DNA from: Gaiellaceae bacterium
GTDB lineage: Bacteria; Actinomycetota; Thermoleophilia; Gaiellales; Gaiellaceae
Assembly: GCA_035651195.1 (NCBI GenBank)
Contig: DASRGD010000051.1
Coordinates: 27,476 to 91,475, forward strand
Direction of reading: 5' to 3'
DNA length: 64,000 nucleotides
Below the pieces are notes generated by a model. That model did not search any database. It saw only the letters and a program-made list of their open reading frames with translations, and had not been told where the DNA came from. Below, piece by piece: positions 1,602-37,949 of this stretch. Position numbers and translations under genes: made by a program. Numbering within the stretch: the stretch's first letter is position 1; every line of letters begins with the position of its first letter.

Positions 1602-1616
1602 GTGCGCTCCTTTCGC

Positions 1617-7802: not shown

Positions 7803-7875
7803 GCGGCAACCCTGCACGCGCGAGGTGGGCGCCCCGCGCCGGGCGCCCACCTCGTCGGGCCCGCTGCCGCTGCGA

Positions 7876-14901: not shown

Positions 14902-15591
14902 ATGGACTCGTTTGCGATTGCGACTCTCCCGGTCGAGCGGCCGGACGAGTGGCGCAGCTTCTGCAAGAGCGTCTCCGGCGGTGAGCGCGCCGAGGCACAC
15001 CGTCAGTTCCTCAGCCGGCTCGGCGTCGACCGCGAGCACATCTTCCACCAGTCCGGCGACGCCGGCGACATGGTGGTGCTCGTCTGGGAAGGCGTCGACC
15101 AGAAGAAGGCCGCGGGGTCGTTCGAAGACCTGCTCCGGAACCCGCGCTCCGAGCACGAGCGGTTTCTCGTGAGCTACGTCATCCCCAGCCTGCACGGCCT
15201 CGACTCGACCGCCGGCCCGCCGCCCGCGATCGAGAAGGTGGCCACGATCGACACCGCGCGCAGTCGGAACGGGAGGCGAGCGACGCCGAAGCGCGGCACC
15301 GCGAAGCGGGCGACCGCGAAACGCGCTGCAGCGAAGCGCGGCACTGCGAAGAAGACAACTGCGAAGAAGACGACGACGAAGCGCAGCACCGCGAAGCGCG
15401 GCAGCGCGACGAAGACGACGGCGAAGCGCAGCACCGCGAGGCGCGGGGCCGCGAAGAAGGCGACGGCGAAGCGGGCGACGGCGACGAAGAAGACGGCGGC
15501 GAGGCGGCGGCCTGCAAAGAGCGGCGCCTCGGCAAAGAGCGGCGGCGCCGCGCGGAGGAAGACCGCCGGGAGGAAGACGCGCGGGCGGTAG
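14902..15591 (+). CDS. Protein with an unassigned ~110-aa N-terminal domain and a histone-H1/Hc1-like (T/A)AK(R/K) repeat tail
   Basis: 229 aa with a GAAAGGAAG SD. The C-terminal ~115 aa is almost only A/K/R/T repeats (TAKRATAKRAAAKRGTAKKTTAKKTTTKRSTAKR...). Confidence 0.7.
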   Translation: MDSFAIATLPVERPDEWRSFCKSVSGGERAEAHRQFLSRLGVDREHIFHQSGDAGDMVVLVWEGVDQKKAAGSFEDLLRNPRSEHERFLVSYVIPSLHGLDSTAGPPPAIEKVATIDTARSRNGRRATPKRGTAKRATAKRAAAKRGTAKKTTAKKTTTKRSTAKRGSATKTTAKRSTARRGAAKKATAKRATATKKTAARRRPAKSGASAKSGGAARRKTAGRKTRGR

Positions 15592-18813: not shown

Positions 18814-19626
18814 TTGCGAGGGTACCTGTCGCGAATCCGAACAGCGTCGACTTCGCCGACGCGCTGGGCGCGCCGAGTCGGTCTGCTCCTGATGGTCGCA
18901 GGCGCTCTGACGGTCGCCTGGGCGGTCGTCGTCTGGCGCTGGCAGGACCCGTTCACGGCGCTGTACACGCTCTACGAGCAGCATCGGCTCGCGCAGACCT
19001 ACGAGCGCCGCGCGAGGGCGTTCGTCGCCGAGCCGCCCGTGCGCAGCGTCTTCGCGGGGAGCCCGAGGACCGGTCGCCTGCCGTCGGGGCGGGCGATCGC
19101 CGCCGCCGAGGCGAGGGTGATCGCCGCCGACGCGCGGCGCTACCGGCTCGAGTCCCGCGAAGGCGAGCCGCTGGGGCGGATCGTCGTGCCGCGCCTCGGG
19201 CTCGACATGATCTTCGTCGACGGCACCGGCGAGGCGTCGCTGGAGCATGGTCCGGGCCGCGCGCTGCAGTCGTTCATGCCGGGCGAGGACCGGCTCGTCT
19301 ACATCGCCGGGCACCGGACGACGTTCCTCGCGCCCTTCGCCCACATCGACGCGCTCAGGCGCGGCGATCCGATCACGCTCGAGCTCCCGTACGCGACGTT
19401 CGCCTACCGCGTCACCGGGCACGTCGTCGTTCCCGCAACCGACCTCTCCGTGCTTCGCTCCGGCCGCAGCGAGCTGCTCGCACTGCAGGCCTGCCACCCC
19501 CGCTTCTTCGCGACGCATCGGTACATCGTCTACGCGCGTCTCGTCGAGGTGATCCCGAAGGTCGCTCCAGGGCGCCCGTACACGACCAGGTGGGCGCGGC
19601 TCATCCGAGCAGCTCCGACGCGGTGA
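18814..19626 (+). CDS. Sortase (class E/F-like transpeptidase)
   Basis: N-terminal TM segment, His motif YIAGHRTT, catalytic Cys motif LALQACHP (TLxTC-type), and a downstream Arg (RYIVYARL). The start is uncertain: TTG 18814 or ATG 18892. Confidence 0.8.
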   Translation: MRGYLSRIRTASTSPTRWARRVGLLLMVAGALTVAWAVVVWRWQDPFTALYTLYEQHRLAQTYERRARAFVAEPPVRSVFAGSPRTGRLPSGRAIAAAEARVIAADARRYRLESREGEPLGRIVVPRLGLDMIFVDGTGEASLEHGPGRALQSFMPGEDRLVYIAGHRTTFLAPFAHIDALRRGDPITLELPYATFAYRVTGHVVVPATDLSVLRSGRSELLALQACHPRFFATHRYIVYARLVEVIPKVAPGRPYTTRWARLIRAAPTR

Positions 19627-20197
19627 CGAGCTCGAAGCCGCTCGCACGAAGACGCGGGACGACGGTCGCGACGGCATCGACGGTCGGCTGCCGGTCACTG
19701 CTCGCGGTCGACGAGGCCGGCGGCACGCCGTCGTGGAGCCCGACGATCGCGCCCGGCCTCGCCCGGGCGAGCACGAGCGTGGCGATCACCGCCGCCGAAG
19801 CGGTCGGGAGCCAGTCCGGTGGCGTGATGTCCGCGCGTGTGTGGGCGAGACCGAGCTCGGCCGCGATCGCCGACACACGGGCGTCGACGTCGTAGTGCGG
19901 TGCGCGGAAACGCCGCGGCGTCTGACCGAGCAGTCGCGTGAGAGCCGCGTTCGTCCGGCTCAGCTCCTCGCGGACGCGGTCGTCGTCGCAATCGCGCGCG
20001 AGCCACGGGTGCGACCAGGTGTGGTTCCCGACCTCGTGCCCGGCGGCAACGAGCCGGCGCAGGACGCCACGGCGCTCGCCTGCCAGGCTGCCGATGACGA
20101 AGAAGGTGGCCCGCCCGCCGTTCGTCGCGAAGATCTCGGCGATCGGCTCGCTCCACGCGGAGGGGCCGTCGTCGAACGTCATCGCGATCTGCGCCAC
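19601..20197 (-). CDS. Polysaccharide deacetylase (NodB homology, CE4)
   Basis: Motifs MTFDDGP, HEVGNHTWSH and RAPHY. The GTG start directly abuts the stop of the upstream flippase-fusion gene. Confidence 0.85.
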   Translation of the reverse strand: MAQIAMTFDDGPSAWSEPIAEIFATNGGRATFFVIGSLAGERRGVLRRLVAAGHEVGNHTWSHPWLARDCDDDRVREELSRTNAALTRLLGQTPRRFRAPHYDVDARVSAIAAELGLAHTRADITPPDWLPTASAAVIATLVLARARPGAIVGLHDGVPPASSTASSDRQPTVDAVATVVPRLRASGFELVTASELLG

Positions 20198-22912
20198 CTA
20201 CGGTCTCCGAACCGCTGCGAGAACGCGGCGGCCGGCGGCGAGCGGCAACTGCCACGCGTGGGCAAGTCCCCACCGCGCACGCAGATGCGCCGGCAGCGCC
20301 GCGGCGGTGCGAGCGAGCGAGGCGCCCGAGGTGGCGGCGAGGAGCGACGACAGCACCTCGGCCAGCGCGCCGTGCCCGGCGAGCCTCCCGGACGAGAATT
20401 CGAAGGCGAGGCGCTCGCGGCGCGTCGGCGTCCAGCGGCAGAGCCAGTCGTGGGCGACTCGAAGCCGTTCCGGCATCCGGAGCGGGAGACCGAGGAGCAC
20501 GTCGAACGCCTCTCTCAGCCGAAGGGCTTGCCCCCGCGTCACCGCCAGCTCGATCAGGCGGTCCCAGTCGACCTCCTGACCGCGCAGGATCATCACCGCG
20601 TCGACGAGCCACTGTGTCGGGGGCAGCGGCCCGTAGCGGGCGCCGGCGACGCAGACGGCAAGCAGCGCGTCTGTCGGCGTCGGCACCAGCACCCGTGTCC
20701 CGCCGACGCTGTAGCGCTGGGCGTCGCGCCAGAGCGGCGCCTCGGCCGGCTCGTCGTCGGGGCCGCGGAAGTCGAGCGCGAGCGACGAGCGCAGGATGCA
20801 CATGCTGCCGTTCTGGTCGAAGAGGACGCGCCAGCCGGGAAACGCGTCGCTCCCCGGCCCGGCCGCCCACCCCAGGCGCTCGAGCCGATTCGTCGCCTCG
20901 GCGACGTCGTTCCCGGCGAGGAGCACGTGGATCGACGACGTCGGGCGCAGGCCGAGGTCGCCGTAGAAGCGCGTTGCGAGCGTCGGGCCCTCGAGGAAGA
21001 GCGTCGCGATACCGGCGGCGCGAAGCGCGTCCGAGATCTCGCTCGTCTGCTCGAGCAGGAGGTTGTTCTTCACCCACGAGCGCCGGTAGATCCCCTTCAG
21101 CAGCGGCAGGCGCGGGTCGTCCTCGCCGGCGCCCGACAGGTTTCGGTACACGAGGGGCAGGAGCTCGAACGAGCCGGGCTCGAGGTCGGTGACCGAGAAG
21201 GTCTCCGGCAGGCGCCGCCAGATGTGCCGTGCGCCGGCCGCGTCCCCGAGCGCAACGGCGAACAGCTGCTCCTGGAGACGGGTCGGCCGGTAGCGGCCGA
21301 TGTCGCGGGTCGCGGCGGCTCGCCGCCCGTGGTCGCGGCCGAGCCTGTTCTCGAGCAGGGTCGGCAGCGGCCGCGCGAGCAGGGGGATCCGCTCCCGGAG
21401 CACGTCTCGCACCTCTGCGACGAGGGCGGGCGCGGCGACGACGAGGATCACCGCGTACAGCAGCAGCGCAGCCGCCCCGGCGAGGAAGAGCTGGGCGGCC
21501 GCGGGCGCGCCCGCGACCTCGAGGCCGTGGCGGACGCCCCAGGCTCCGGCCGCCGCGACCGCAGCGAGCGGCAGGATCGTTCCCCCGGCGAGCAGGGCCT
21601 CGCGGAAGCTGAAGCGCATGACGCGCGTGGTGACGTAGGTGTCGACGAGGACGAGCGGCCACTTGACGGCGGCGTAGGAGGCGGCGACGCCGACGGCGCC
21701 CCAGCGGACGCCGACCGCGAACGCCGCCAGGGTTACGGCCGTGACGAAGAAGTCGAGCCGGAGCGCGATCCCCACCCTCCCCGTCCCCTGCAGCACGGTC
21801 CAGTTCAGGGTGACGAGCGAGTGGGCGACCCCGGCGACCGCCAGCAGCTCGATCACCGGCACCGCCGCGTGCCACTTCTGGCCGAAGAGGACACGCACGA
21901 GATCGGGCGCCGTTACGGCGATGACCATGAAGGCCGGCGCGAGCAACGAGGCGGAAAGGCGCTTGCTGCGCAGCCACGCGCTGCGCATGCGCGGCACGTC
22001 GTCCTGCATGCGCGCGAGCGCCGGGTAGACCACGCCCGAGATCGGGTTCGCGATCCGGATCATCGGCGTGAACACGACGTTGTACGCGAGCGAGTAGGCC
22101 CCGAGCGCGGACGCGCCGGCGAAGCGGCCGACGAGCGCGTTGTCGACGTTGAGGTTCGCGTAGTTGAGCAGGCGGATGCCGAACAAGCGCGCGCCGAAGC
22201 TGCTCAGGTGGCGGAGGTGCGCGAGCGAGAACACGCGCCGCGGCCGCCACGACGAGAGACGCCAGAGCAGCAGCGTCGAAGCCGCCGACGCGACGAGCGA
22301 GTTGCCGATGATCGCCCACGGCCCGAAGCCGGCGAACGCGAGCGCGAGCGCGGCGACCCCACCGCAGAGGACGCCGGCGATCTCGCGGAGCTCGAGGCTG
22401 CGGTACGAGAGCCGACGCGTGAGCAGCGCGACCTGCGTCGTCGAGAGCGCGGCGAGCGGGAACGAGAACGAGAGACCGATCACGAGGTTGCGCACCTCGT
22501 GTCGTCCGAAGAAGTCCGCGACGAGCCCCGAGAGCGCGATCGAGACGCCCATCACGAAGACGCCGAACGCGAGCGAGGCCCAGAACACCGTCGACCGATC
22601 CTCCTCCGTGATCTCGCGCCGCTGCACGAGCGCGCCTCCGAGCGCAAGGTCCGAGAAGAGGGTCACGAGGCCGGAGAAGACGAACGCCATCCCGGCGACG
22701 CCGTAGTCTGCGGGTATCAGCAGGCGCGCGAGCACGATCGCGACGACGACGCGCGTCACCTCGGAGACGCCGATCGTGAGCGTCTTCCAGCCGAACCCGC
22801 TCAGCACGGCGGAGGTCATGCCGCCCGTGGCCTCGATCGAGCCCACCTCCTCGGCGGCGACCGGAGGCGCGCCGTCGGGAGGGTTCGAGGTCGCGTCGGT
22901 GCGGGCGGTCAA
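20198..22912 (-). CDS. Fusion protein: Wzx-type polysaccharide flippase (MOP superfamily) plus a C-terminal PF14907-like uncharacterised nucleotidyltransferase domain
   Basis: Single 904-aa ORF with no internal stop. Residues ~30-505 are multi-TM Wzx-like. Residues ~540-904 resemble the stand-alone ORF 26956..27993 (LLPLVYRNL, GIATLFLEGPTLATRFYGDLGLRPTSSIHVLL, then a helical tail). Confidence 0.7.
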   Translation of the reverse strand: MTARTDATSNPPDGAPPVAAEEVGSIEATGGMTSAVLSGFGWKTLTIGVSEVTRVVVAIVLARLLIPADYGVAGMAFVFSGLVTLFSDLALGGALVQRREITEEDRSTVFWASLAFGVFVMGVSIALSGLVADFFGRHEVRNLVIGLSFSFPLAALSTTQVALLTRRLSYRSLELREIAGVLCGGVAALALAFAGFGPWAIIGNSLVASAASTLLLWRLSSWRPRRVFSLAHLRHLSSFGARLFGIRLLNYANLNVDNALVGRFAGASALGAYSLAYNVVFTPMIRIANPISGVVYPALARMQDDVPRMRSAWLRSKRLSASLLAPAFMVIAVTAPDLVRVLFGQKWHAAVPVIELLAVAGVAHSLVTLNWTVLQGTGRVGIALRLDFFVTAVTLAAFAVGVRWGAVGVAASYAAVKWPLVLVDTYVTTRVMRFSFREALLAGGTILPLAAVAAAGAWGVRHGLEVAGAPAAAQLFLAGAAALLLYAVILVVAAPALVAEVRDVLRERIPLLARPLPTLLENRLGRDHGRRAAATRDIGRYRPTRLQEQLFAVALGDAAGARHIWRRLPETFSVTDLEPGSFELLPLVYRNLSGAGEDDPRLPLLKGIYRRSWVKNNLLLEQTSEISDALRAAGIATLFLEGPTLATRFYGDLGLRPTSSIHVLLAGNDVAEATNRLERLGWAAGPGSDAFPGWRVLFDQNGSMCILRSSLALDFRGPDDEPAEAPLWRDAQRYSVGGTRVLVPTPTDALLAVCVAGARYGPLPPTQWLVDAVMILRGQEVDWDRLIELAVTRGQALRLREAFDVLLGLPLRMPERLRVAHDWLCRWTPTRRERLAFEFSSGRLAGHGALAEVLSSLLAATSGASLARTAAALPAHLRARWGLAHAWQLPLAAGRRVLAAVRRP

Positions 22913-23013
22913 GCGCCGGCCCTTGCCCGCGACTCCCGCCCGCGCCGCGCCCGCATACCATCCGCAGGCCCATGCCCGGCAGGCGGTCCACCGGATTCGC
23001 TCGGTCGTCGTTC

Positions 23014-23835
23014 ATGCGCGCTCGTCACTTCGGCATCCGCGTCTCGCACCGGCTCGGAAGGATCGAGCCCCTGGGCGGGTCGCGGCCCGGGATCGCGATC
23101 ACGGGCGGCGGCGGGACGATCGGCCGGATCCTCCGCGACGGGCTGAGCGACGCGTATGCGATCCGGACGATCGACCTGATGCCCCTCGAAGGAGTCGACG
23201 TGGTCGCCGACACGCGCAACCTCGACCGGACGCAGGCCGCGTTCGCAGGCGCCGGGACCGTCGTCGACCTGGCGGCGGACGCGGGCGTGCGCACGCCCTG
23301 GGAGGACGTCCGCGAGAACAACCTCGCCGCCACGGTCGCCGCGCTGGAGGCGGCGCGCCGCGCCGGCGTCCGCCGTGTCGTCTTCGCGAGCACGAACCAC
23401 GTCACCGGCATGTACGAGCTGGACGAGCCGTACGCATCCGTCGTCGCCGGCCGCTACGACGGCCTCGATCCGGCCGCGCTGCCGCGGCTGCGGGCCGACT
23501 GGCCGATCAGGCCCGACAGCTTCTACGCCGTCGGCAAGGCCGCCGGCGAGGCGGCGGGTCGGTTCTACTCCGACGAGCACGGCCTCTCCGTCATCTGCCT
23601 CCGCATCGGCTCCGTGAGCGCGTCGAACCGTCCGCGTGACGTCCGCGAGTACGCGACGCTGCTCACGCACCGTGACCTCGTGCAGCTCGTCCTGCGGTGC
23701 ATCGAGGCGCCGGCCGACGTCCGCTTCGGCGTGTTCTACGGCGTCTCCGCGAACACGTGGCGCATCTGGGACATCGAGGACGCGCGGGCGACGCTCGGCT
23801 ACGAGCCGGTCGACGACGCGGAGCGCTTCCGCTGA
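23014..23835 (+). CDS. NAD-dependent epimerase/dehydratase-family protein (uronate-dehydrogenase-like layout)
   Basis: Rossmann motif ITGGGGTIGR, then FASTNHVTG and YAVGKAAGE (YxxxK). The C-terminal WDIEDARATLGYEPVDDAERF resembles Udh-type enzymes from memory. The start could also be 22972. Confidence 0.7.
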   Translation: MRARHFGIRVSHRLGRIEPLGGSRPGIAITGGGGTIGRILRDGLSDAYAIRTIDLMPLEGVDVVADTRNLDRTQAAFAGAGTVVDLAADAGVRTPWEDVRENNLAATVAALEAARRAGVRRVVFASTNHVTGMYELDEPYASVVAGRYDGLDPAALPRLRADWPIRPDSFYAVGKAAGEAAGRFYSDEHGLSVICLRIGSVSASNRPRDVREYATLLTHRDLVQLVLRCIEAPADVRFGVFYGVSANTWRIWDIEDARATLGYEPVDDAERFR

Positions 23836-23878
23836 CGAGGCGTCTCCGGCTGCCGACCGTGCGGCGCGCCCACCGGCG

Positions 23879-24619
23879 TCAGGGCTGCGGCTCACGTCGA
23901 CCGAGCAACGCCGCCTCGGCGGCGGCGGAAGACGCCTGCGCTCGACGCCGGTCGAGTGCCGCTTTCAGAACGTGGAGGTATTGCTGCCGCGAGTCGCGTT
24001 CGCGCAGGCCGTTGTTCGCGAGGTGGAGCCGGCGTTCGAGCACGACCTCCGGCAGCATCGCGCTGCGCAGCCCCGCCTCGACCGCGCGCGCGTACCAGTC
24101 GACGGTGACACCGACCTTCACGTCCTCGGCGAAGGGGCCGACGCGGGCGAAGGACTCGCGCCTGATGAGCATCAGGTTCGGCGCCGTCCACGGAAGCGGC
24201 TGCGGCGCCGGCGGCCGCACGGTCGCCCGCTGCTCCTCGCTCAGCTCCGGGCTGACGAACTCGCGCACGTGCCCGAAGACCACGTCGAGCGCCGGATCCG
24301 ACTCCAGGGCCGCGAACTGCAACTCGAGCTTGTCGGCGACGAAGCGGTCGTCGGCGTCGAGGAAGGCGTAGAGCGCGCCCGAGGCGAGGCGCACGGCGTG
24401 GTTGCGCGCGGCGCCGTTGCCGGCGTTTTCCTGGTGGGCGAAGGTGAGCGCGTCGCCGTACGACCGGGCGACGTCGGCCGACCCGTCGTCGGAGCCGTCG
24501 TCGACGACGATCAGCTCGAGCGGCCGATAGCTCTGGGCGAGGACGCTGTCGATCGCCTCGCCGAGATACGGCGCCGCGTTGTAGACGCCGATCATGACGC
24601 TGATGAGCGGGCGGGTCAC
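23879..24619 (-). CDS. GT2-family glycosyltransferase
   Basis: Motifs ISVMIGVYNAAPYLGEAIDSVLAQSY, VVDDGSDDGS and LDADD. The GTG at 24617-24619 forms a GTGA overlap with the upstream stop. Confidence 0.85.
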   Translation of the reverse strand: MTRPLISVMIGVYNAAPYLGEAIDSVLAQSYRPLELIVVDDGSDDGSADVARSYGDALTFAHQENAGNGAARNHAVRLASGALYAFLDADDRFVADKLELQFAALESDPALDVVFGHVREFVSPELSEEQRATVRPPAPQPLPWTAPNLMLIRRESFARVGPFAEDVKVGVTVDWYARAVEAGLRSAMLPEVVLERRLHLANNGLRERDSRQQYLHVLKAALDRRRAQASSAAAEAALLGRREPQP

Positions 24620-25296
24620 GCCGCTCCCCCGCCGACTGCCCGCTCCCGCTCGAGCTTCTGGCGGAGCGAGCGAAGCAGCGGGCTCGTGGACGGTGGCGCG
24701 GCCGTCAGGTTGCGGCCGTGGAAGCGGCGGAAGAGGATGATCTCCGGGATCACCTCGATCCGGATGCCACGCTCGCGGAGCCTGAACAACAGGTCCATGT
24801 CCTCGCTGTGCGTGAATGACTCGTCGAAGCCGCCGACGGCTTCGAAGACGCGGCGCCTGATCATCGCCGAGAGGAGAGGGATGCCGTCGACGTCGCCGTA
24901 GACCGCGTCGCGCGCGAGCCACGGCGGCGGGTCGATCCACTCCTGCCGGCCGAGGACACAGCCGACCTCGGGATGCCCGACCAGGAAGCCTGCCTGCGCC
25001 GCCAGCCGCGTCGGCGGCCAGAGGTCGTCGGCGTCGAAGAACGCGAGCAGCTCTCCCTGAGAGGCCGCGACGGCAGCGTTTCGCGCGGCCGCCGCGCCGG
25101 CGTTCGACTGCCGGATCGTGCGCAGCTCCGGATGCGCCGCGAGGATCTCGGGCGTGCGATCGGTCGAGCCGTCGTCGCAGACCACGACCTCGAAAGGGTC
25201 GTAGTCCTGCGCGAGGATGCTCGCGATCGCGTCCTCGAGGAACTCCTCCGCCTGGAAGGCGGGCATGATCACGCTGACGAGCGGGCGGCTCTCCAC
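24616..25296 (-). CDS. GT2-family glycosyltransferase
   Basis: Motifs VSVIMPAFQAEEFLEDAIASILAQDY, VCDDGSTD and FDADD. GTG start 4 nt downstream of the HprK-like stop. Confidence 0.85.
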   Translation of the reverse strand: MESRPLVSVIMPAFQAEEFLEDAIASILAQDYDPFEVVVCDDGSTDRTPEILAAHPELRTIRQSNAGAAAARNAAVAASQGELLAFFDADDLWPPTRLAAQAGFLVGHPEVGCVLGRQEWIDPPPWLARDAVYGDVDGIPLLSAMIRRRVFEAVGGFDESFTHSEDMDLLFRLRERGIRIEVIPEIILFRRFHGRNLTAAPPSTSPLLRSLRQKLERERAVGGGAA

Positions 25297-25300
25297 GGCT

Positions 25301-26422
25301 TCAGGCGCCGGCGCCGACGGTGGCGATCAGGTCACGGATCGCGTGCGGGATCGAGGCGATGTCCGATCCGAGCTCGAGCACGTAGCTGGGGACGCGCTCG
25401 ACGAGGCGACGCACCCGGACGAGCGAGTCCTGCCCCCGCGTGTGCATCTGGAAGACGGTGCTCGGTGCGAGCGCCGTGAAGCCGGCCACCGGCGACGCCT
25501 CGAAGTACCTCGCCTCGACGAGACCGGGCGTGATGCGCGGCAGGACGACCGCGCGCAGCGGGAACCCTGCAGTGATCTTCGCCGGCCAGTGCTCGTTCAC
25601 GTACACGACCGCCTTCTCGATCGCGAGGTGGTCGCGGTTCGCCAAGGCGTCGAGCAGGAACGGCAGCCGCTCGACATGATTCTGCATCAGCTTGCCGGAG
25701 CCGTAGAGGCAGTGGACCTGCGGCTGCGTGTCGAGCGAGACGGCGATGTAGTCGTCGCCCGCGTAGAAGAGGTCGGCGTCCAGGCTCGAGAGCGCGGCCG
25801 TGGACTTGCCGGAGCCGCTCTTGCCGACGAGCACGACGCCGCCCTCGTCGGTGCCGACGGCGCCGGCATGGAGCATGTGCATGCCGCGCGCGCGCAGCCA
25901 CCAGTCGAGCAGGTAGACGAGCGGCGTCGCCTGTTCCCAGTACGGAATGCGGCGCGCGTCGGCGACCCAGTACCAGCCTCTGGCGTTGCTCGTCTCGAGC
26001 ACGCTCAGCGCCGGCGTCGGCGCGTTCGGGTAGACGGCGAGGACGCGGGCGTCTCCGCTCGTGCCGAGCTGGAAGCCGGCGCGGAGCTGGTGATTGCTGA
26101 AGTAGAAGAACGCGCCGGGCGCCTCCTCGTCCTCCGTGTTCGGGAGCGGCGGCGGCGACCCGCCCGACTCAGCGTCCCACAGGTTCACCGTCAGGTCCGG
26201 CTGCCCTGCCGGCTCGTCGAGCTCGAGATGCGCGAAGGCCCGGCCGAGCCGACGCAGCATCTCGGGGTGCGGGGAGCGGAGGCGCACCGTCGCGTCCGCG
26301 AGCCGGACGTCGCGCTCCTCGACGACCGACGCCGCGCGCACGGCGGCCTCGAAGCTCGCGGCGAGCGGCTCGAGCTCGCCGAAGCCGAGGTCGGCCGACC
26401 GGACCGCAGACGCCGCCGTCAC
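25301..26422 (-). CDS. HPr-kinase/phosphorylase-like P-loop protein (HprK-related kinase) with an unassigned N-terminal ~190 aa
   Basis: P-loop LVGKSGSGKST, followed by AGDDYIAV as in the HprK/P catalytic core. The GTG at 26420-26422 gives a GTGA overlap with the PqqD-like stop; an alternative GTG lies at 26455. Confidence 0.6.
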   Translation of the reverse strand: MTAASAVRSADLGFGELEPLAASFEAAVRAASVVEERDVRLADATVRLRSPHPEMLRRLGRAFAHLELDEPAGQPDLTVNLWDAESGGSPPPLPNTEDEEAPGAFFYFSNHQLRAGFQLGTSGDARVLAVYPNAPTPALSVLETSNARGWYWVADARRIPYWEQATPLVYLLDWWLRARGMHMLHAGAVGTDEGGVVLVGKSGSGKSTAALSSLDADLFYAGDDYIAVSLDTQPQVHCLYGSGKLMQNHVERLPFLLDALANRDHLAIEKAVVYVNEHWPAKITAGFPLRAVVLPRITPGLVEARYFEASPVAGFTALAPSTVFQMHTRGQDSLVRVRRLVERVPSYVLELGSDIASIPHAIRDLIATVGAGA

Positions 26423-26877
26423 GTCGTCGCGACGTCCGGGCGCGCATGCGGCCACCCGGCAGCGTCCACTTCGTGGACCGGATCGAGCAGGACGAGGTCC
26501 TGCATGTCCGTGTACTTCTCGAGCACGGGCGTCTCGAACGACCTCGCGCCGTCGGTCGCGGCCACGCCGTTCGCGACCGACGTGGAGGGCACGGCCTGGT
26601 CGACCTCGGCGACGAGCTCTTCTCGCCGCAGCTCCTCGAGGAACCGGCCGATCTCTCCCTCGACCGCATCGAGCGGGTTGTCGAAGCGACGAGCGACCGC
26701 TGCCGCGATCTCGTGCGCGTCGGCGCCCGGCGACGCCTGAACCACGTCCCAGATGTCCGCGCCGGCGCCCTTGACGCTGTAGTAGTTGCCCGTCGCGAGG
26801 TTGATGATGATGACCTCGCCGTCGATCGTCTCGTGAATCACTTGCGGGGCGTTCACCCGCAGACCCGATCTCTTCAT
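26419..26877 (-). CDS. PqqD-family (RiPP-recognition-element-like) protein with a ~60-aa C-terminal extension
   Basis: The block IHETIDGEVIIINLATGNYYSVKGAGADIWDVV...EIAAAVARRF...AVEGEIGRFLEELRREELV fits the PqqD winged-helix pattern. GGAGGA SD about 6 nt upstream of the ATG at 26875-26877. Confidence 0.6.
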   Translation of the reverse strand: MKRSGLRVNAPQVIHETIDGEVIIINLATGNYYSVKGAGADIWDVVQASPGADAHEIAAAVARRFDNPLDAVEGEIGRFLEELRREELVAEVDQAVPSTSVANGVAATDGARSFETPVLEKYTDMQDLVLLDPVHEVDAAGWPHARPDVATT

Positions 26878-26955
26878 CGCGCGCTCCTCCACCAACGGCC
26901 GGGAATATGGTCGAAAACGTACACTGCCCACTCCGGAGTCGTACTACTCAGGGGG

Positions 26956-27993
26956 GTGGTTTTCGCGACCGAGCTCTGGGCTGCGGTCGGCGCGCTGATC
27001 GATCGTGCCTCGGTGGACGGCGTCGTCGTGCACAAGCTCGCCCCCCTCGCCGCCGGCCGACGCCGCGCAGCCGGCGAGCCCGTACCCGAAGCGCTCGCCG
27101 CGGAGGAGCGCGCGGCGTCGTTCGCAGCCCTGAGCGCCACCGCGCTCCTCGGCCGCATCCGGGAGCTCGGCGAGGGGCCGATCGTGCTCCTCAAGGGCCC
27201 CGAGGTCGCCGCGCTCTACCCGCAGAACGGGCGTCGGTTCGGAGACGTCGACGTGCTCACGCCGGATGCGGCCGCGCTGCACCGGGCGCTCCGCGAGCAC
27301 GGGTTCGTCGACGTGGACACGAAGGGATTCGAGCCGCTCGAGCACCACCATCTGCCGCCGCTGCGCTGGCCGGTCGTGCCGCTCGTCGTCGAGGTCCACG
27401 CGTCGCCGAACTGGCCGCGCGGGATGCACGCGCCACCGCTCGCCGAGATCCTCGAGGCCGCGGTGCCGTCGATCGTCGGGGTGAAAGGGATCTCGGCGCC
27501 GCGCCCGCTCCACCATGCGCTTCTCCTCACCGCGCATGCATGGGCGCACGGGCCGTTGCAGACGCTGCGCGATCTGGTGGACGTGGCGGCTCTCGCCGCC
27601 GGCGAGGAGCGCGCCGAGCTCGACCGCCTCGCGGCGGCGTGGGGCATCCGTCGCGTCTGGCGGACGACGCGGCAAGCCGTGGACGCGCTCTTCGCCGGCG
27701 GCCCGCGCCCGGCGGCGCTGCGCATCTGGGCGCGCCACCTGAACGCGGTCCGCGAGCGAACGGTCTTCGAGAACCACCTCCAGGCGGCCCTGCACCCGTT
27801 CTGGGGGCGGCCGCTCGCGCCGGCGCTGCTCGAGTCGATGGCGGCGATTCGCACCGACCTCGTCCCCGCCCCCGGCGAGAGCTGGAAGACGAAGCTGCAA
27901 CGAATCCCGCGCGCGGTGCGCGAGGCCCGGATGCCGGTCAGCCAGCGGCCGCAGGCGACTGCGGAGGAGATTTCGTCAGGATCGACCGGATAA
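26956..27993 (+). CDS. PF14907-like uncharacterised nucleotidyltransferase family protein
   Basis: The block GPIVLLKGPEVAALYPQNGRRFGDVDVLTPDAAALHRALREHGF fits the nucleotidyltransferase GxxxDxD-type core. It resembles the C-terminal half of ORF 20198..22912. It is divergent from the PqqD-like gene (78-bp gap). The GTG 26956 start is tentative. Confidence 0.55.
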   Translation: MVFATELWAAVGALIDRASVDGVVVHKLAPLAAGRRRAAGEPVPEALAAEERAASFAALSATALLGRIRELGEGPIVLLKGPEVAALYPQNGRRFGDVDVLTPDAAALHRALREHGFVDVDTKGFEPLEHHHLPPLRWPVVPLVVEVHASPNWPRGMHAPPLAEILEAAVPSIVGVKGISAPRPLHHALLLTAHAWAHGPLQTLRDLVDVAALAAGEERAELDRLAAAWGIRRVWRTTRQAVDALFAGGPRPAALRIWARHLNAVRERTVFENHLQAALHPFWGRPLAPALLESMAAIRTDLVPAPGESWKTKLQRIPRAVREARMPVSQRPQATAEEISSGSTG

Positions 27994-28044
27994 CTTCCGG
28001 CTCGTAGTTGCAGTTGTCCGTGCTGTTTGCTTGGCTAGTCCTGC

Positions 28045-29208
28045 GTGGCGAGATTCGCCCGAGCCGTCGTGCTGGGCGCGGTCGCGTTGCTGCTGCTCGC
28101 GGCGGCCGCCGGTGCACAGGGAACGGCCCACACCCTGGCCGGGACGGGCGTGCTCAGCCTCGGCGGCGGTCTCGCGACCGGGTCGAACCGAGCTTCGCTG
28201 CTGATGGTCTCGACCGCCAGCGCCTCGGCCGCCGCGCGCCAGAAGGGTCGGTCGCTCGTCTACTTCGCCGGGACCGACGTGAACACGGAGTGGAACACGG
28301 GCGTCCCGTACGCGGAAGCCGCGCGACACGGCTGGCTGCTGAAGGACGCCTCCGGCGACCTGCTCGTGAACAGCCGCTACCCGTCGAACTACGTCGGCGA
28401 CGTCGGCAACCCGCAGTACCAGCGGGCATGGCTGCGAAACGTGCTCGCGTTCCTTGCGCGGCACCACGACGACGGCGTCCTGATCGACGACGTGCTGTAC
28501 GACCTCGAGCCGCTCACCGAGACCGAGGCGTCGGCGTACCCGACGCAGCAGGCGTGGGCGGCGGCGCAGCTGTCGTTCATCCGCGCCGTCGGGCCGGCGC
28601 TCCGTTCCAGGGGGTACTACGTGCTCGTGAACGCGGCCGGCTACGTTCCGGGCGACGCTCGCAGCGACACCGGAGCGAACACCGCCACGTGGTGGCGCGA
28701 GCTCGCGCCGTACGTGAGCGGGTTCATGAACGAGTACTTCGCCGAGACTCCCGACGGCAACGGCACGCTCCGATCGACCGGCGGCTCGTGGAGCCAGAAC
28801 TGGGACGGGTGGCAACGGCTCGTACGCGTGGCGCAGTCGGTCGGCCGCGACTTCGTCGGCGTCACCTACGGAGACCCCGGGGACACCCGAGCGATGAGCT
28901 ACGCCAAGGCGTCGTTCCTGCTCGACTGGAACGGCGGCGGCGGTGCCTTCGTCTTCGACGCGACCGAGGGCCGGGACGCGTGGAACAGCGCCTGGACGCA
29001 GAACATCGGCCTGCCTCTGGACGCGAAGCGGCGCGTCGGCTCCGGCTGGCTTCGCCGGTACAGCGCGGGCCTCGTGCTGATCAACCCGTCGCCGACGAGC
29101 ACGCAGAGCTTTGTCCTGCCCGGCCGCTACGTGACCGCGGACGGCCAGGTCGTGACGTCGGCGACGCTGCCGCCGACCCAGGCGCTCATCCTTCAGGCTG
29201 CCGCGTGA
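28045..29208 (+). CDS. Secreted GHL15/GH114-like glycoside-hydrolase-like protein (paralog 2 of 3)
   Basis: Signal peptide MARFARAVVLGAVALLLLAAAAGAQG. It has the same conserved blocks as paralogs 1 and 3. Confidence 0.6.
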   Translation: MARFARAVVLGAVALLLLAAAAGAQGTAHTLAGTGVLSLGGGLATGSNRASLLMVSTASASAAARQKGRSLVYFAGTDVNTEWNTGVPYAEAARHGWLLKDASGDLLVNSRYPSNYVGDVGNPQYQRAWLRNVLAFLARHHDDGVLIDDVLYDLEPLTETEASAYPTQQAWAAAQLSFIRAVGPALRSRGYYVLVNAAGYVPGDARSDTGANTATWWRELAPYVSGFMNEYFAETPDGNGTLRSTGGSWSQNWDGWQRLVRVAQSVGRDFVGVTYGDPGDTRAMSYAKASFLLDWNGGGGAFVFDATEGRDAWNSAWTQNIGLPLDAKRRVGSGWLRRYSAGLVLINPSPTSTQSFVLPGRYVTADGQVVTSATLPPTQALILQAAA

Positions 29209-29770
29209 CGACAGGTCGAAGACGCTCCGCCGGCAACGGGGCGAGCGCGGCGGCGAGCGCGTGCGTGACGGCGTCGATCACCCGCGCGACCTCCGCGAAC
29301 ACCTGTCGCGACTCGCCGATCGGGTCGGCCAGGATGGCGCTGCCCCGTGGGCGGGCGTCCCGCAGCCGGCCGAGTTCGGCGATCACCTGACGGGCGTGCC
29401 GAGCGCCGGAGCCGCTCGGGACGGCTAGGCGGTCGAGCAGCTCGGGCAGCTCGAGGAGAAGGAAGACGCGCTCTGTGCGGGCTTGACCCACCTCGACGGC
29501 AGCAGCTGCGTGCGACGGCTCGAAGCCGATCACCAGGTCGTCGTCGACGAGTAGCCCTCGCCGAAGGGCGCGCGCGCGATGCGCGCTCAGGTCGACGCCG
29601 AGCGCAGCCGCGACCGCGATCGCATCCGGCAACGCCGGCATTCCCTCGACGTCGAGCGTGCCGTACGACGACACCGCGAGCGGCGCGCCGCCGAGATGCC
29701 GACGAAGGAGCGCAGCCGCGAGCGGGCTCCGGGCTCGGTTGCCGGTACAGACGAATGCGACCCGGAGCAG
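29186..29770 (-). CDS. Low-molecular-weight protein-tyrosine phosphatase (Wzb-like); start codon unresolved
   Basis: Hand translation upstream of the track ORF gives RRPLLRVAFVCTGNRARSPLAAALLRR (CX5R(S) P-loop), and a DP motif (ILADPIG) lies downstream. Only a CTG (29768-29770) lies in frame upstream of the P-loop. The first GTG (29674) lies after it. Confidence 0.65.
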   Translation of the reverse strand: MLRVAFVCTGNRARSPLAAALLRRHLGGAPLAVSSYGTLDVEGMPALPDAIAVAAALGVDLSAHRARALRRGLLVDDDLVIGFEPSHAAAAVEVGQARTERVFLLLELPELLDRLAVPSGSGARHARQVIAELGRLRDARPRGSAILADPIGESRQVFAEVARVIDAVTHALAAALAPLPAERLRPVVTRQPEG

Positions 29771-29777
29771 CGGGCGC

Positions 29778-30362
29778 CTACGAGTCCGACCGCGCGACGC
29801 CTCGGCGCAGGACGAACCCCAACGCGAAGAGCGCGAGGCCGGCGAGCACGAACTTGAGTAGCGAGAGCCCCGTGAACGGGAGCGTCGGCGCGCTCGGCGC
29901 CGGCGTCGGCTTGGGCGCCGCGGGCGTCTGCTTGGCCGCCACGTGCCTGGGCGCCGCGGCCACCGCCGGGACGCGCGGGGGCGGCGTCGTCTTCGGCGGC
30001 GTGAACGGCTTGGTCGGCGTGACGGAGGTCGGAGCGGGCGTCGTCGGCGCGGCCGCAGGCGGCGTCGCCGGAGCGAGCGTTGTCGGTAGCGGGCTCGTCG
30101 GAACGGGAGTCACCGCCGGCGTGATCGCGGGAGGCGGCGTCTCGGGAGGCGGCGTCAGCACCTGCTGCTGCAGGTACTGGTCGTCGGCCGCCGTGATCGG
30201 GGTGTCCGTCGCGGCCGCCCGCGCCTGCCCTGCGAACGCGGCGAACGCGACCGTCGTCAGCGCGGCGACCGCGAGCGTCGCAACCGCCGTCCGAGGTCTC
30301 CGCCGATCCTCGCGACCGCTGCGGCTGGTTGACGATGATTCATTCCGACGTACCCTAGGCAT
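29778..30362 (-). CDS. Pro/Thr/Ala-rich secreted protein with a C-terminal LPFTG sortase sorting signal
   Basis: This is the last 194 aa of track ORF 29778..31946. It has a signal peptide (...AVAALTTVAFAAFAGQARA), a low-complexity P/T/A stalk, LPFTG (29868-29882), a hydrophobic segment, and an RRGVARSDS tail. Confidence 0.75.
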   Translation of the reverse strand: MPRVRRNESSSTSRSGREDRRRPRTAVATLAVAALTTVAFAAFAGQARAAATDTPITAADDQYLQQQVLTPPPETPPPAITPAVTPVPTSPLPTTLAPATPPAAAPTTPAPTSVTPTKPFTPPKTTPPPRVPAVAAAPRHVAAKQTPAAPKPTPAPSAPTLPFTGLSLLKFVLAGLALFALGFVLRRGVARSDS

Positions 30363-30428
30363 AATGGCCTCCGTACCCGCTGCTCCTGATACTAATCCAG
30401 CTCGGGCCCAGACGATCGGGGGGACTTT

Positions 30429-37797: not shown

Positions 37798-37949
37798 CGT
37801 CTCGCCCGCATCGTAGGGCGGCTCACCCACTCGAGCTGCTCCTGCGCCCGACTTGGCGTGTCGCGATCGAAGACGGGTCCATCGTCGCCGGCGCCGCCGG
37901 GGCCCGGATCGTCTGCGGCACCGGCGTCCGGCCGTGGCTCGAGGACGAG

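What the first reader, a model, noticed from the sequence alone, without database searches (positions are those of the whole stretch)
18814..30362. Dedicated sortase plus a single stalk-only LPFTG substrate inside an EPS locus; a possible Gram-positive analogue of the exosortase/PEP-CTERM arrangement
Seen in sequence:
- A sortase (18814..19626; motifs IAGHRTT and LQACHP) lies in the locus.
- About 10 kb away is one protein (29778..30362) built only of a signal peptide, a ~110-aa Pro/Thr/Ala low-complexity stalk, LPFTG, a hydrophobic segment and a basic tail.
- That protein sits immediately upstream of the LMW-PTP gene and divergent from the Wzc-like kinase.

Established knowledge and memory: the locus also contains gene types that, as I recall, typify exosortase/PEP-CTERM EPS loci in Gram-negatives. 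These are an AsnB-type amidotransferase, a FemAB-like protein, a deacetylase-like protein, a Wzc and a priming transferase.

Inference: the sortase-anchored proline-rich protein may be a wall-attached acceptor or tether for the polymer, or the substrate of the PqqD/HprK/GT2 module.
Basis: partly seen in the sequence, partly recalled or inferred. Interest (0 to 1): 0.65.

Follow-up and report, generated by a model that had tools for sequence, protein, structure and literature searches.

The report
Wall-anchored small protein in polysaccharide locus
A soil actinobacterium's surface-polysaccharide gene cluster carries a sortase and a small wall-anchored protein; that protein belongs to a large, unnamed family that nearly always sits beside the polysaccharide-export kinase, so it is probably a working part of that machinery, though its role is untested.

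Summary
A sortase lies at 18814..19626 (+). One LPFTG protein lies at 29778..30362 (-), just upstream of an LMW-PTP and divergent from Wzc. Both sit inside a Wzx/Wzy-type polysaccharide locus (about 15.9-52.3 kb) of a Gaiellales-like actinobacterium.

"Dedicated sortase" is not supported. About 65 of 80 related genomes keep the orthologous sortase at one conserved housekeeping locus with no substrate nearby. Unrelated LPFTG proteins also exist. Only the window's sortase clade and a few other lineages place the sortase inside the polysaccharide locus.

The stalk protein is not stalk-only. It belongs to an unannotated family (461 clusters at 50% identity with E<=1e-10). The family has an invariant Gln-Tyr motif and a TLPFTG[LF]SL sorting signal. 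In 16 of 22 informative loci it is the divergent neighbour of Wzc and a long Wzy_C protein.

Most members also carry a short cytoplasmic N-terminus that co-occurs with an ECF sigma factor gene in the Wzc operon (9/9 versus 0/5). The window's version lacks both and has an expanded Pro/Thr stalk.

Best guess: a sortase-anchored acceptor or tether for the polymer. The main rival is a wall-tethered regulator of Wzc. The PEP-CTERM comparison is an analogy, not membership.

The parts
18814..19626 (+). Membrane-anchored sortase. It is class-E-like but below every class cut-off. Its family appears to recognise LPFTG.
   Evidence: Pfam PF04203 78.5 bits. NCBIfam class E 93.8 bits against a cut-off of 160; TIGR01076 passes. 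Best PDB sequence matches are class E sortases 5uus, 5go5 and 5cuw. His/Cys/Arg are invariant. All 9 convincing sorting signals found near family members read LPFTG.
29778..30362 (-). Small secreted LPFTG protein (194 aa) of the QY-LPFTG family. Layout: signal peptide, SAADDQY motif, 97-aa Pro/Thr/Ala stalk, LPFTG, TM segment, RRGVAR tail.
   Evidence: Family alignments are A2, A3 and A4. No Pfam or NCBIfam match.
30174..30179 (-). Gln62-Tyr63, the only invariant residues outside the sorting signal. Candidate modification or recognition site.
   Evidence: Invariant in 26 sequences that were retrieved through the LPFTG pattern alone. At least 90% conserved in the 43-sequence alignment A4.
29781..29882 (-). 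Cell-wall sorting signal: LPFTG (29868..29882), a hydrophobic segment and a basic tail.
   Evidence: TLPFTG.SL...G..LRR is invariant in A3.
29186..29770 (-). LMW phosphotyrosine phosphatase (Wzb-like) with CTGNRARS motif. It starts 7 nt after the stalk stop codon and probably initiates at CTG.
   Evidence: Pfam LMWPc 63.9 bits. There is no in-frame ATG, GTG or TTG upstream of the catalytic Cys. A CTG 7 codons upstream of the Cys is conserved in L082, L123 and L125. The junction is confirmed in 4 assemblies.
30363..30428 (.). 66-bp divergent intergenic region between the stalk gene and wzc. It contains an AT-richer GATACTAATC core, GGAGG before the stalk gene and GGGGGGA before wzc.
   Evidence: Read directly from the sequence. 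The consensus promoter scan found nothing, so promoter assignment is inference.
30429..32057 (+). Wzc-type chain-length determinant fused to a tyrosine autokinase.
   Evidence: TIGR01007 117.8 bits, above its cut-off; Pfam Wzz plus P-loop domains.
32066..34000 (+). Long Wzy_C-family membrane protein (644 aa) with C-terminal TPR. Either the polymerase or a PglL/WsfB-like ligase. It is conserved next to Wzc and the small protein.
   Evidence: Pfam Wzy_C 39.5 bits plus TPR. Residues about 530-628 match TPR proteins in the PDB. Synteny.
34314..35699 (+). Priming polyprenyl glycosylphosphotransferase.
   Evidence: TIGR03025 360 bits, above its cut-off of 295.55; Pfam Bac_transf.
50257..51669 (-). 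Second Wzy_C-family protein (470 aa), more WaaL/ligase-like by HMM.
   Evidence: Pfam Wzy_C 70.6 bits. TIGR03097 34.7 bits and RfaL 22 bits, both sub-threshold. Homologues adjoin the small protein in L107, L108, L119 and L121 and in the P0187 locus.
36772..37830 (-). FemAB-like acyl/aminoacyl transferase. Its best hit is the XrtA-associated FemAB family, below cut-off.
   Evidence: TIGR03019 122.3 bits against a cut-off of 260. Syntenic in L001, L002 and L106.
42743..44617 (+). AsnB-type glutamine amidotransferase.
   Evidence: TIGR01536 508.9 bits, above its cut-off. TIGR03108 417.7 bits against a cut-off of 816.9.
20198..22912 (-). Wzx-type MOP flippase fused to an NTP_transf_5 domain.
   Evidence: Pfam Polysacc_synt_3 267 bits and NTP_transf_5 81.8 bits. 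NF007773 271 bits against a cut-off of 273.

Best explanation
Shown:
- The window holds a Wzx/Wzy-dependent surface-polysaccharide locus of a Gaiellales-like actinobacterium.
- Embedded in it are (i) a sortase of the lineage's general sortase family, whose neighbouring substrates all carry LPFTG, and (ii) a small secreted LPFTG protein.
- That protein is a member of a large unannotated family. The family is defined by a signal or anchor segment, an invariant Gln-Tyr motif, a variable linker and a TLPFTG[LF]SL sorting signal.
- The conserved genomic partner of the family is the Wzc / long Wzy_C / priming-transferase operon, not the sortase.

Inferred mechanism:
1. The precursor is exported by Sec.
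2. Its exposed part (Tyr63 and/or the 19 Thr of the expanded Pro/Thr stalk) receives the undecaprenyl-linked polymer from one of the locus's two Wzy_C-family proteins. One would act as the polymerase and the other as a WaaL/PglL/WsfB-type ligase.
3. The sortase cuts LPFT|G and joins the glycoprotein to peptidoglycan.
4. The polymer is thereby held on the wall without an LCP ligase, which the locus lacks.

The phosphatase gene is translationally coupled to the stalk gene, which would tie Wzc dephosphorylation to acceptor supply.
For: Family and synteny:
- QY and TLPFTG are invariant in 26 sequences retrieved through the LPFTG pattern only.
- The family counts 1037 clusters at 90% identity. At 50% identity it counts 461 clusters at E<=1e-10 and 2430 at E<=1e-3. 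None has a Pfam or NCBIfam model.
- Wzc is the divergent neighbour in 16 of 22 informative loci, and a second Wzy_C in 2 more. The same cassette appears in 6 of 7 look-ups.

Sortase link:
- All 9 convincing sorting signals within 10 kb of family sortases read LPFTG.
- 5 of the 6 sortase loci that carry Wzc/Wzy/priming-transferase genes carry a small LPFTG protein, against 4 of 74 other loci.
- The sortase is adjacent to the small protein again in L087, L091, L128 and L133/L134, in different arrangements.

Acceptor idea:
- The window has two Wzy_C paralogues.
- The Wzc-adjacent one has Wzy_C plus a C-terminal TPR. PMC2943079 reports that architecture for the O-oligosaccharyltransferases PglL and WsfB. 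The same paper notes tyrosine O-glycosylation of S-layer proteins and an AsnB homologue (wsfA) in that glycosylation locus.
- No LytR-CpsA-Psr gene occurs among the genes scanned from 16.6 to 52.3 kb or within 10 kb in six relatives.
- There is a precedent for a glycosylated housekeeping-sortase substrate: A. oris GspA, glycosylated by LcpA (PMC6381275).
Against: - No experiment and no expression data exist; no RNA run holds the region.
- It cannot be told which Wzy_C protein is the polymerase and which the ligase. Both could be polymerases. The long one matches Wzy_C only weakly (39.5 bits), and sequence searches found no solved WaaL or PglL relative.
- In most family members the linker is short and not notably Ser/Thr-rich. 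Those members carry a cytoplasmic N-terminal extension that co-occurs perfectly with an ECF sigma factor gene. That points to a regulatory role for the family.
- An LCP ligase could be encoded elsewhere in the genome.
- The sortase sits 10 kb away and belongs to a family that is normally a housekeeping enzyme.
Confidence: 0.4

Rival explanations
1. Wall-tethered regulator or sensor. The family is at root a single-pass anti-sigma or signalling protein whose outer end is fixed to the wall by sortase. In most relatives its about 45-aa cytoplasmic N-terminus holds the ECF sigma factor encoded in the Wzc operon. The window's version has lost both the sigma factor gene and the N-terminus. It would now act only through its outer QY segment on the extracellular parts of Wzc or Wzy_C, together with the co-translated phosphatase.
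For: - The N-terminal extension and the ECF sigma gene co-occur in 9 of 9 covered type-B loci. Both are absent in 5 of 5 type-A loci.
- The cassette small protein | Wzc-Wzy_C-sigma-PGT recurs in 6 look-ups.
- The sigma factor passes TIGR02937, and its best subfamily hit is BldN-like.
- The intergenic region is about 220 bp and carries a shared motif across L146-L149.
- The PTP is tightly coupled to the stalk gene in the window clade.
Against: - The window has no ECF sigma gene and no N-terminal extension, so the regulatory output is missing here.
- No known anti-sigma domain is detected. The best hit is NF052375 at E=0.1 for one member.
- A 97-aa Pro/Thr stalk is not explained by a sensing role.
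Confidence: 0.3
2. Ordinary surface protein and housekeeping sortase that merely lie in a variable polysaccharide island. The linkage would have no functional meaning for the polymer.
For: - The sortase family is at a housekeeping locus in about 65 of 80 genomes.
- Within the window's sortase clade, L003 and L004 have the sortase in unrelated contexts.
- Family member P0163 lies outside any polysaccharide locus.
Against: - The Wzc adjacency of the small protein recurs across sequences only 30-45% identical.
- Sortase and small protein co-locate in several different gene orders.
- If one sortase gene and one small-protein gene were placed at random in a genome of a few Mb (assumed size), they would lie within 10 kb in about 0.5% of genomes. 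The observed figure is 5 of 80.
Confidence: 0.1
3. The sortase joins the protein directly to the polymer. The LPFT-acyl intermediate would be resolved by an amine on the polysaccharide, for example a de-N-acetylated amino sugar or an aminoacyl group added by the FemAB-like or AsnB-type enzymes. The result would be a protein-capped polymer rather than a wall-linked protein.
For: - The locus encodes two CE4-type deacetylases, a DegT aminotransferase, a FemAB-like transferase and an AsnB-type amidotransferase.
- The sortase is embedded in the locus in the window, L001, L002, L005, L008 and L062.
- From my own knowledge, unchecked here: sortases can accept amino-sugar nucleophiles in vitro.
Against: - There is no direct evidence.
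- Most family loci have no sortase nearby.
- FemAB and AsnB are not part of the conserved core cassette.
Confidence: 0.08
4. The stalk protein is the peptide substrate of the PqqD/HprK-related/GT2 module (25301..26895 and neighbours).
For: - The PqqD-family protein (PF05402, 44.2 bits) and the HprK-related protein lie 3 kb away.
- The module is also present next to the stalk-PTP-GHL15 genes in L082, L123 and L125.
Against: - The module is absent from L001, L002, L089 and all type-B cassettes, which still keep the small protein.
- The small protein is exported, whereas PqqD-type chaperones act on cytoplasmic precursors (established knowledge of RiPP recognition elements).
Confidence: 0.04

Closest known systems
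PEP-CTERM / exosortase (EpsH, XrtA) system of Gram-negative environmental bacteria (Haft 2006, PMC1569441)
   Same: - A C-terminal tripartite sorting signal sits on small, low-complexity, Thr/Ser-enriched proteins encoded in or near polysaccharide loci.
- Those loci carry chain-length determinant, sugar-transferase, GT4 and deacetylase genes.
- FemAB, AsnB and GT4 genes here have sub-threshold hits to the XrtA-associated families.
   Different: - The processing enzyme is a sortase, not an exosortase, and the signal is LPFTG, not PEP.
- There is one substrate per locus rather than many paralogues per genome.
- The sortase is usually encoded elsewhere at a housekeeping locus.
- No associated family reaches its curated cut-off.
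Actinomyces oris GspA / LcpA / SrtA (PMC6381275)
   Same: An actinobacterial LPXTG protein is anchored by the housekeeping sortase and carries a glycopolymer. This is a precedent for a sortase substrate serving as a glycan carrier.
   Different: - In A. oris the glycan is added by an LCP phosphotransferase. No LCP gene is in this locus or in six related loci.
- GspA is not reported as a neighbour of Wzc.
- There is no sequence similarity.
PglL / PilO / WsfB O-oligosaccharyltransferase systems, including tyrosine O-glycosylation of Paenibacillus alvei S-layer protein (PMC2943079)
   Same: - A Wzy_C domain with a C-terminal TPR, as in the protein at 32066..34000.
- An undecaprenyl-linked glycan built by a priming transferase.
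- An AsnB homologue in the locus.
- A conserved Tyr in the putative acceptor.
   Different: - The acceptor would be a small sortase substrate, not a pilin or an S-layer protein.
- Transferase activity and the attachment site are untested.
- The Wzy_C protein may simply be the polymerase.
Class E (housekeeping) sortases of Actinobacteria, such as Streptomyces SrtE1 (PDB 5cuw) and the Corynebacterium sortase 5uus
   Same: These are the best sequence matches in the PDB and in NCBIfam. They share the N-terminal membrane anchor and the His-Cys-Arg triad. Relatives sit at a housekeeping-type locus.
   Different: - The window's sortase scores 93.8 bits against a cut-off of 160.
- Neighbouring substrates carry LPFTG, not LAXTG. 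That LAXTG is the class E preference comes from my own knowledge.
- NCBI labels family members inconsistently as class D or class E.
ECF sigma / single-pass anti-sigma factor pairs
   Same: Most family members have a short cytoplasmic N-terminus followed by one TM segment, and an ECF sigma gene sits in the adjacent operon.
   Different: - The window's member lacks both.
- No anti-sigma domain is detected.
- I found no report of a sortase signal on an anti-sigma factor.

Membership tests
Sortase (PF04203 / TIGR01076) | Domain match above the curated cut-off | tested here: met
   PF04203 78.5 bits against 26.6; TIGR01076 54.7 against 39.35.
Sortase (PF04203 / TIGR01076) | Catalytic His, Cys (TLxTC-like) and Arg | tested here: met
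   H141, C201 and R210 (numbered from the ATG at 18892) are invariant in 18 homologues. The motifs are IAGHRTT and LQACHP.
Class E sortase (NF033747) | Score at or above the curated cut-off | tested here: not met
   93.8 bits against a cut-off of 160. Class D, SrtD and class C models also fall below their cut-offs.
Class E sortase (NF033747) | LAXTG-type substrates | tested here: not met
   All 9 convincing sorting signals within 10 kb of family sortases read LPFTG. The LAXTG preference of class E is from my own knowledge.
LPXTG cell-wall sorting signal protein | N-terminal signal peptide plus C-terminal LPXTG, hydrophobic segment and basic tail | tested here: met
   Read from the translation. 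It is the only such ORF in the window and the signal is conserved in the family.
LPXTG cell-wall sorting signal protein | Cleavage by sortase and linkage to peptidoglycan | not testable with these tools
   This needs cell-wall proteomics or an in-vitro sortase assay.
Exosortase / PEP-CTERM system | Exosortase (EpsH/XrtA) gene present | tested here: not met
   No exosortase family appears among the Pfam or NCBIfam hits of the genes scanned from 14.9 to 64 kb. Genes from 1 to 14.8 kb were not scanned against families; by reading they look like an ABC transporter and metabolic genes.
Exosortase / PEP-CTERM system | PEP-CTERM sorting motif on the target protein | tested here: not met
   The signal is LPFTG and there is no Pro-Glu-Pro motif.
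Exosortase / PEP-CTERM system | XrtA-associated accessory families at curated cut-off (FemAB TIGR03019, amidotransferase TIGR03108, deacetylase TIGR03006, ligase TIGR03097, stp1-3) | tested here: not met
   All are sub-threshold: 122 against 260; 418 against 817; 49.5 against 276; 35 against 188; 146 against 409.
Wzx/Wzy-dependent polysaccharide locus with BY-kinase | Priming transferase, flippase, Wzy_C protein, Wzc autokinase and phosphotyrosine phosphatase | tested here: met
   TIGR03025 360 bits and TIGR01007 117.8 bits are both above cut-off. Pfam gives Polysacc_synt_3, Wzy_C (twice) and LMWPc.
PglL/WsfB-type O-oligosaccharyltransferase | Wzy_C domain with C-terminal TPR | tested here: met
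   The protein at 32066..34000 has Wzy_C at residues 283-430 and TPR at about 530-628. The architecture is stated for PglL and WsfB in PMC2943079.
PglL/WsfB-type O-oligosaccharyltransferase | Transfer of lipid-linked glycan to a protein Ser, Thr or Tyr | not testable with these tools
   No solved relative was found by sequence. No multiple alignment that the structure tool would accept was available for a reliable model.
LCP-dependent wall attachment of polymer (GspA/LcpA type) | LytR-CpsA-Psr gene in the locus | tested here: not met
   None among the genes scanned from 16.6 to 52.3 kb, nor within 10 kb in six related loci. The rest of the genome was not seen.
ECF sigma / anti-sigma pair | Adjacent ECF sigma gene and a cytoplasmic sigma-binding N-terminus | tested here: not met
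   The window has neither. Both are present in type-B relatives.

The most novel reading that the evidence does not exclude
The QY-LPFTG proteins are an undescribed, sortase-processed subunit of Wzc-type polysaccharide machines in soil Thermoleophilia. In most lineages the protein would be an anti-sigma factor whose outer end is covalently fixed to the wall, so that transcription of the polysaccharide operon is coupled to wall attachment. In the window's lineage the same protein would have become a mucin-like, wall-anchored acceptor on which the polymer is carried. That would be a true monoderm counterpart of the PEP-CTERM/exosortase arrangement and an LCP-independent way to hold a capsule on peptidoglycan.
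Probability: 0.2. Interest if true: 0.85.

Novelty: new variant of a known kind. Interest (0 to 1): 0.66.

Why it matters
Monoderm bacteria are thought to fix capsules and wall polysaccharides to peptidoglycan through LCP phosphotransferases. A protein carrier joined by sortase would be a second route.

It would also give a testable function to the long-standing but unproven idea that C-terminal sorting signals in polysaccharide loci (PEP-CTERM/exosortase) mark glycan carriers.

The family is abundant in soil metagenomes and belongs to Thermoleophilia, a class that is abundant in soil but has very few cultivated species (PMC6544083). It has no name in Pfam or NCBIfam.

The link to an ECF sigma factor in most members suggests a new way of coupling envelope assembly to transcription.

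On the practical side, the data define a probable LPFTG-specific sortase family that current class models do not place.

Tried and rejected
- A single-sequence search with the stalk protein found only 2 relatives. The family emerged only after a pattern scan of metagenome contigs and a profile search.
- The consensus promoter and terminator scan of 29000..30700 found nothing.
- No RNA run holds the region, so expression could not be checked.
- PDB sequence searches with the two Wzy_C proteins gave only TPR matches or nothing, so ligase and polymerase could not be told apart. I did not predict structures, because no multiple alignment that the tool would accept was available for the Wzy_C proteins, and the stalk protein is largely low-complexity.
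- A programmed frameshift fusing the stalk protein to the phosphatase was considered and rejected. The phosphatase frame is +1 in the window but +2 in L082 and L123, while a CTG 7 codons before the catalytic Cys is conserved.
- The motif GAGCGTAGCAGCG, shared by type-B intergenic regions, is at chance level in the window.
- Literature searches for LPFTG, sortase with anti-sigma, sortase in Thermoleophilia, and sortase with O-oligosaccharyltransferase found no prior description.
- A genome-wide census of sortases and LPFTG proteins in the source organism was not possible.
- My first gene caller, tuned to 72% GC, under-called genes in loci of 64-68% GC. L003 and L004 were redone with adjusted parameters.


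Full report
**Source organism and locus.** The window is 72% G+C. Its proteins are closest to those of uncultured Gaiellaceae/Gaiellales (Thermoleophilia) from soil and mine metagenomes. ORF lists are unreliable at this G+C, so I called genes from codon-position G+C and annotated them with Pfam and NCBIfam. From about 15.9 to 52.3 kb lies a Wzx/Wzy-type polysaccharide locus. Its genes are:
- methyltransferases;
- three GHL15 paralogues;
- a CE4 deacetylase;
- a MOP flippase fused to NTP_transf_5;
- an epimerase and two GT2 genes;
- an HprK-related kinase, a PqqD-like protein and another NTP_transf_5 protein;
- an LMW-PTP, Wzc and a long Wzy_C protein with C-terminal TPR;
- a priming transferase and a GFO oxidoreductase;
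- a FemAB-like protein and a second deacetylase-like protein;
- a hexapeptide acyltransferase and a DegT aminotransferase;
- AsnB, three GT4 genes, a second Wzy_C protein and a NodS-like methyltransferase.

- The sortase (18814..19626, +) passes the Pfam and TIGR01076 cut-offs. It has a membrane anchor and the His/Cys/Arg triad. It is the only sortase in the window.
- The ORF at 29778..30362 (-) has a GGAGG ribosome-binding site and a signal peptide. A 97-residue stretch that is 71% Pro/Thr/Ala follows, then LPFTG, a hydrophobic segment and a basic tail. It is the only convincing sorting signal in a six-frame scan.
- The phosphatase follows immediately, and Wzc is divergent across 66 bp.
- Four independent metagenome assemblies reproduce 29100..30500 without indels.

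**What the sortase is.** It scores best against class E but below every class cut-off. Its nearest solved relatives are class E enzymes. NCBI labels its relatives inconsistently as class D or class E.

A scan of one genome per species found 501 stretches that encode relatives. I examined the best 80, which come from 80 different assemblies, each with 10-kb flanks.
- In about 65 of them the gene sits in one conserved context: an HtrA-like protease, a histidine kinase, a response regulator and an M28-like membrane peptidase upstream; MoeA, GT2, GT1, a large membrane protein, PBP1A and MscS downstream. These neighbour names are my reading of the translated sequences, not family searches. No sorting-signal protein lies within 10 kb.
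- In a neighbour-joining tree the window groups with L001-L005 and L008. Five of these seven have the sortase inside a polysaccharide locus (window, L001, L002, L005, L008). L062 and L065 form a second such pair.
- L003 and L004, inside the window's clade, have unrelated contexts.
- All nine convincing sorting signals near these sortases read LPFTG. Three of them (L021, L032, L080) sit on an unrelated protein of about 300 aa next to the sortase.

So this is the lineage's general sortase, whose neighbouring substrates all carry LPFTG. In some lineages it has moved into the polysaccharide locus. It is not a dedicated paralogue, as far as can be seen without whole genomes.

**What the stalk protein is.** On its own it finds only two relatives. 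Aligning those with the small LPFTG proteins of L001, L002 and L062 revealed a shared SAAxDQY motif just after the signal peptide and a shared TLPFTG[LF]SL...LRRR signal.

A metagenome scan with that signal returned 65 loci.
- Forty-nine non-redundant loci encode small proteins of this kind.
- In 16 of the 22 with enough upstream sequence, Wzc is the divergent neighbour. In two more a Wzy_C protein is.
- Gln-Tyr is invariant in 26 diverse members, although it was not part of the search pattern.
- A profile search found 1037 clusters at 90% identity, all labelled 'hypothetical' and without Pfam domains.
- An exhaustive HMM search of 1.84 billion representatives found 461 clusters at E<=1e-10 and 2430 at E<=1e-3.
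- Neither Pfam nor NCBIfam has a model.

**Two subtypes.** Most members (type B, about 170 aa) have a conserved cytoplasmic N-terminus of about 45 residues before the hydrophobic segment. A conserved strand-like segment, SSAxDQY, a 30-50-residue linker and the sorting signal follow.

Six of seven look-ups of such members show the same cassette. The small protein is divergent from Wzc, then come a Wzy_C protein of 619-642 aa, an ECF sigma factor, the priming transferase and, in five of the six, a GFO-domain oxidoreductase. Neither a sortase nor an LCP gene lies within 10 kb.

The ECF sigma gene is present in all nine type-B loci that cover the position. It is absent from all five type-A loci, which are the window, L001, L002, L089 and L123. 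Type B therefore looks like an anti-sigma factor with a sortase signal. I found no report of such a thing.

The window's protein is type A. It has a plain signal peptide, no sigma factor gene, and a linker expanded to 97 Pro/Thr/Ala-rich residues.

**Sortase linkage seen from the small protein's side.** The sortase is adjacent in L087, L091, L128 and L133/L134. It is absent from the seven non-redundant loci that have at least 2 kb on both sides. It is also absent from the 20-kb locus L089 and the 11-kb locus L123, which are otherwise syntenic with the window.

From the sortase's side, 5 of 6 polysaccharide-linked loci carry a small LPFTG protein, against 4 of 74 others. Co-location is thus recurrent and occurs in several gene orders, but it is the exception.

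**Mechanism.**
- Shown: the family, its sorting signal, the QY motif, the Wzc/Wzy_C synteny and the sortase family's apparent LPFTG preference.
- Inferred: the protein is exported, is modified or bound at its outer part, and is fixed to peptidoglycan by the sortase.

I favour an acceptor or tether role for the window's member, for five reasons:
1. The locus has two Wzy_C proteins.
2. The Wzc-adjacent one shares the Wzy_C plus C-terminal TPR layout that PMC2943079 reports for PglL and WsfB. The same paper notes tyrosine O-glycosylation and an AsnB homologue in that locus.
3. No LCP ligase is present.
4. The regulatory parts seen in type B are missing here.
5. A. oris GspA shows that a housekeeping-sortase substrate can carry a glycopolymer.

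The main rival is a regulatory or sensing role inherited from the type-B form. I cannot separate the two with sequence data.

**Comparison with PEP-CTERM/exosortase.** The analogy is fair at the level of logic: a sorting signal on a small low-complexity protein inside a polysaccharide locus, and similar accessory gene types. Membership fails. There is no exosortase and no PEP motif, and all XrtA-associated families score below cut-off.

**Side observation: the phosphatase start.** In the window, L082 and L123/L125, the catalytic Cys of the phosphatase lies 26-28 nt after the stalk stop codon. There is no in-frame ATG, GTG or TTG, but a CTG 7 codons upstream is conserved. More distant relatives have a spacer of 120-190 nt and an in-frame ATG or GTG start (ATG in L001, L089 and L094). 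This suggests termination-reinitiation at CTG. An annotation that starts at the first GTG (29674) would cut off the active site.

Noticed in passing
window 29674..29780 (- strand): The LMW-PTP has no canonical start codon upstream of its catalytic Cys; the first in-frame GTG (29674) lies after the CX5R motif. A CTG at 29770, 7 nt after the stalk TAG stop, is conserved in L082, L123 and L125. The reading frame relative to the stalk gene differs between relatives, so coupled reinitiation is more likely than a frameshift.
   Followed up: yes
L146 5582..6109; L147 5622..6173; also L148, L149, L062, L086, L092, L093, L122, L127, L136: An ECF sigma factor gene (BldN-like best hit) sits between the long Wzy_C gene and the priming transferase. 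It occurs in exactly those relatives whose small LPFTG protein has a cytoplasmic N-terminal extension of about 45 aa. This would be a possible sortase-processed anti-sigma factor.
   Followed up: partly
L021 about 7500..8448; L032 about 800..1784; L080 about 7070..8130; L115 663..1556: An unrelated LPFTG protein family of about 300 aa, with a conserved 'YGNGxTAxQIA...GPGNSQPHK...VDVHA' core, lies directly next to the sortase in three genomes. It is a second substrate type for this sortase family.
   Followed up: partly
L006-L079 (about 65 loci), around position 10001: The sortase sits at a conserved housekeeping locus: HtrA-like protease, histidine kinase, response regulator and M28-like membrane peptidase upstream; MoeA, GT2, GT1, a large membrane protein, PBP1A and MscS downstream. 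These names are my reading of the translated sequences. The M28-like peptidase is co-directional and immediately upstream in 64 loci.
   Followed up: partly
window 17517..18629 (-), 28069..29208 (+), 40824..42302 (-): Three GHL15 (PF14885) paralogues lie in one locus. The third has a Thr-rich tail of about 150 aa and a basic C-terminus but no sorting signal. A GHL15 gene is conserved next to the PTP in L001, L081, L082, L089, L094, L123 and L125. Together with two deacetylase-type genes, this hints at a partly de-N-acetylated amino-sugar polymer with its own hydrolase.
   Followed up: no
window 25301..27993 and 20198..22912: There is an HprK-related kinase, a PqqD-like protein and an NTP_transf_5 protein (all sub-threshold to the 'HPr-rel-A system' models). 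A second NTP_transf_5 domain is fused to the C-terminus of the Wzx flippase. No small precursor gene was looked for.
   Followed up: no
L146-L149, about 9780..10000: The divergent intergenic region of about 220 bp in type-B cassettes shares the motif GAGCGTAGCAGCG and a TTCCA...GTAAGG element upstream of the small-protein gene. The motif is at chance level in the window.
   Followed up: partly
window 14902..15591 (+): A protein with a Lys/Thr/Ala-rich repeat tail (TAKR/TAKK units) gives a sub-threshold match to histone-H1-like HC2 (37.2 bits, cut-off 40). It lies just outside the polysaccharide locus.
   Followed up: no
L003 5749..9768: In one close relative the sortase follows an L,D-transpeptidase-like protein and an adenylation-thiolation-thioesterase protein, a context unrelated to polysaccharide synthesis. 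The names are my reading of the translations, not family searches.
   Followed up: no
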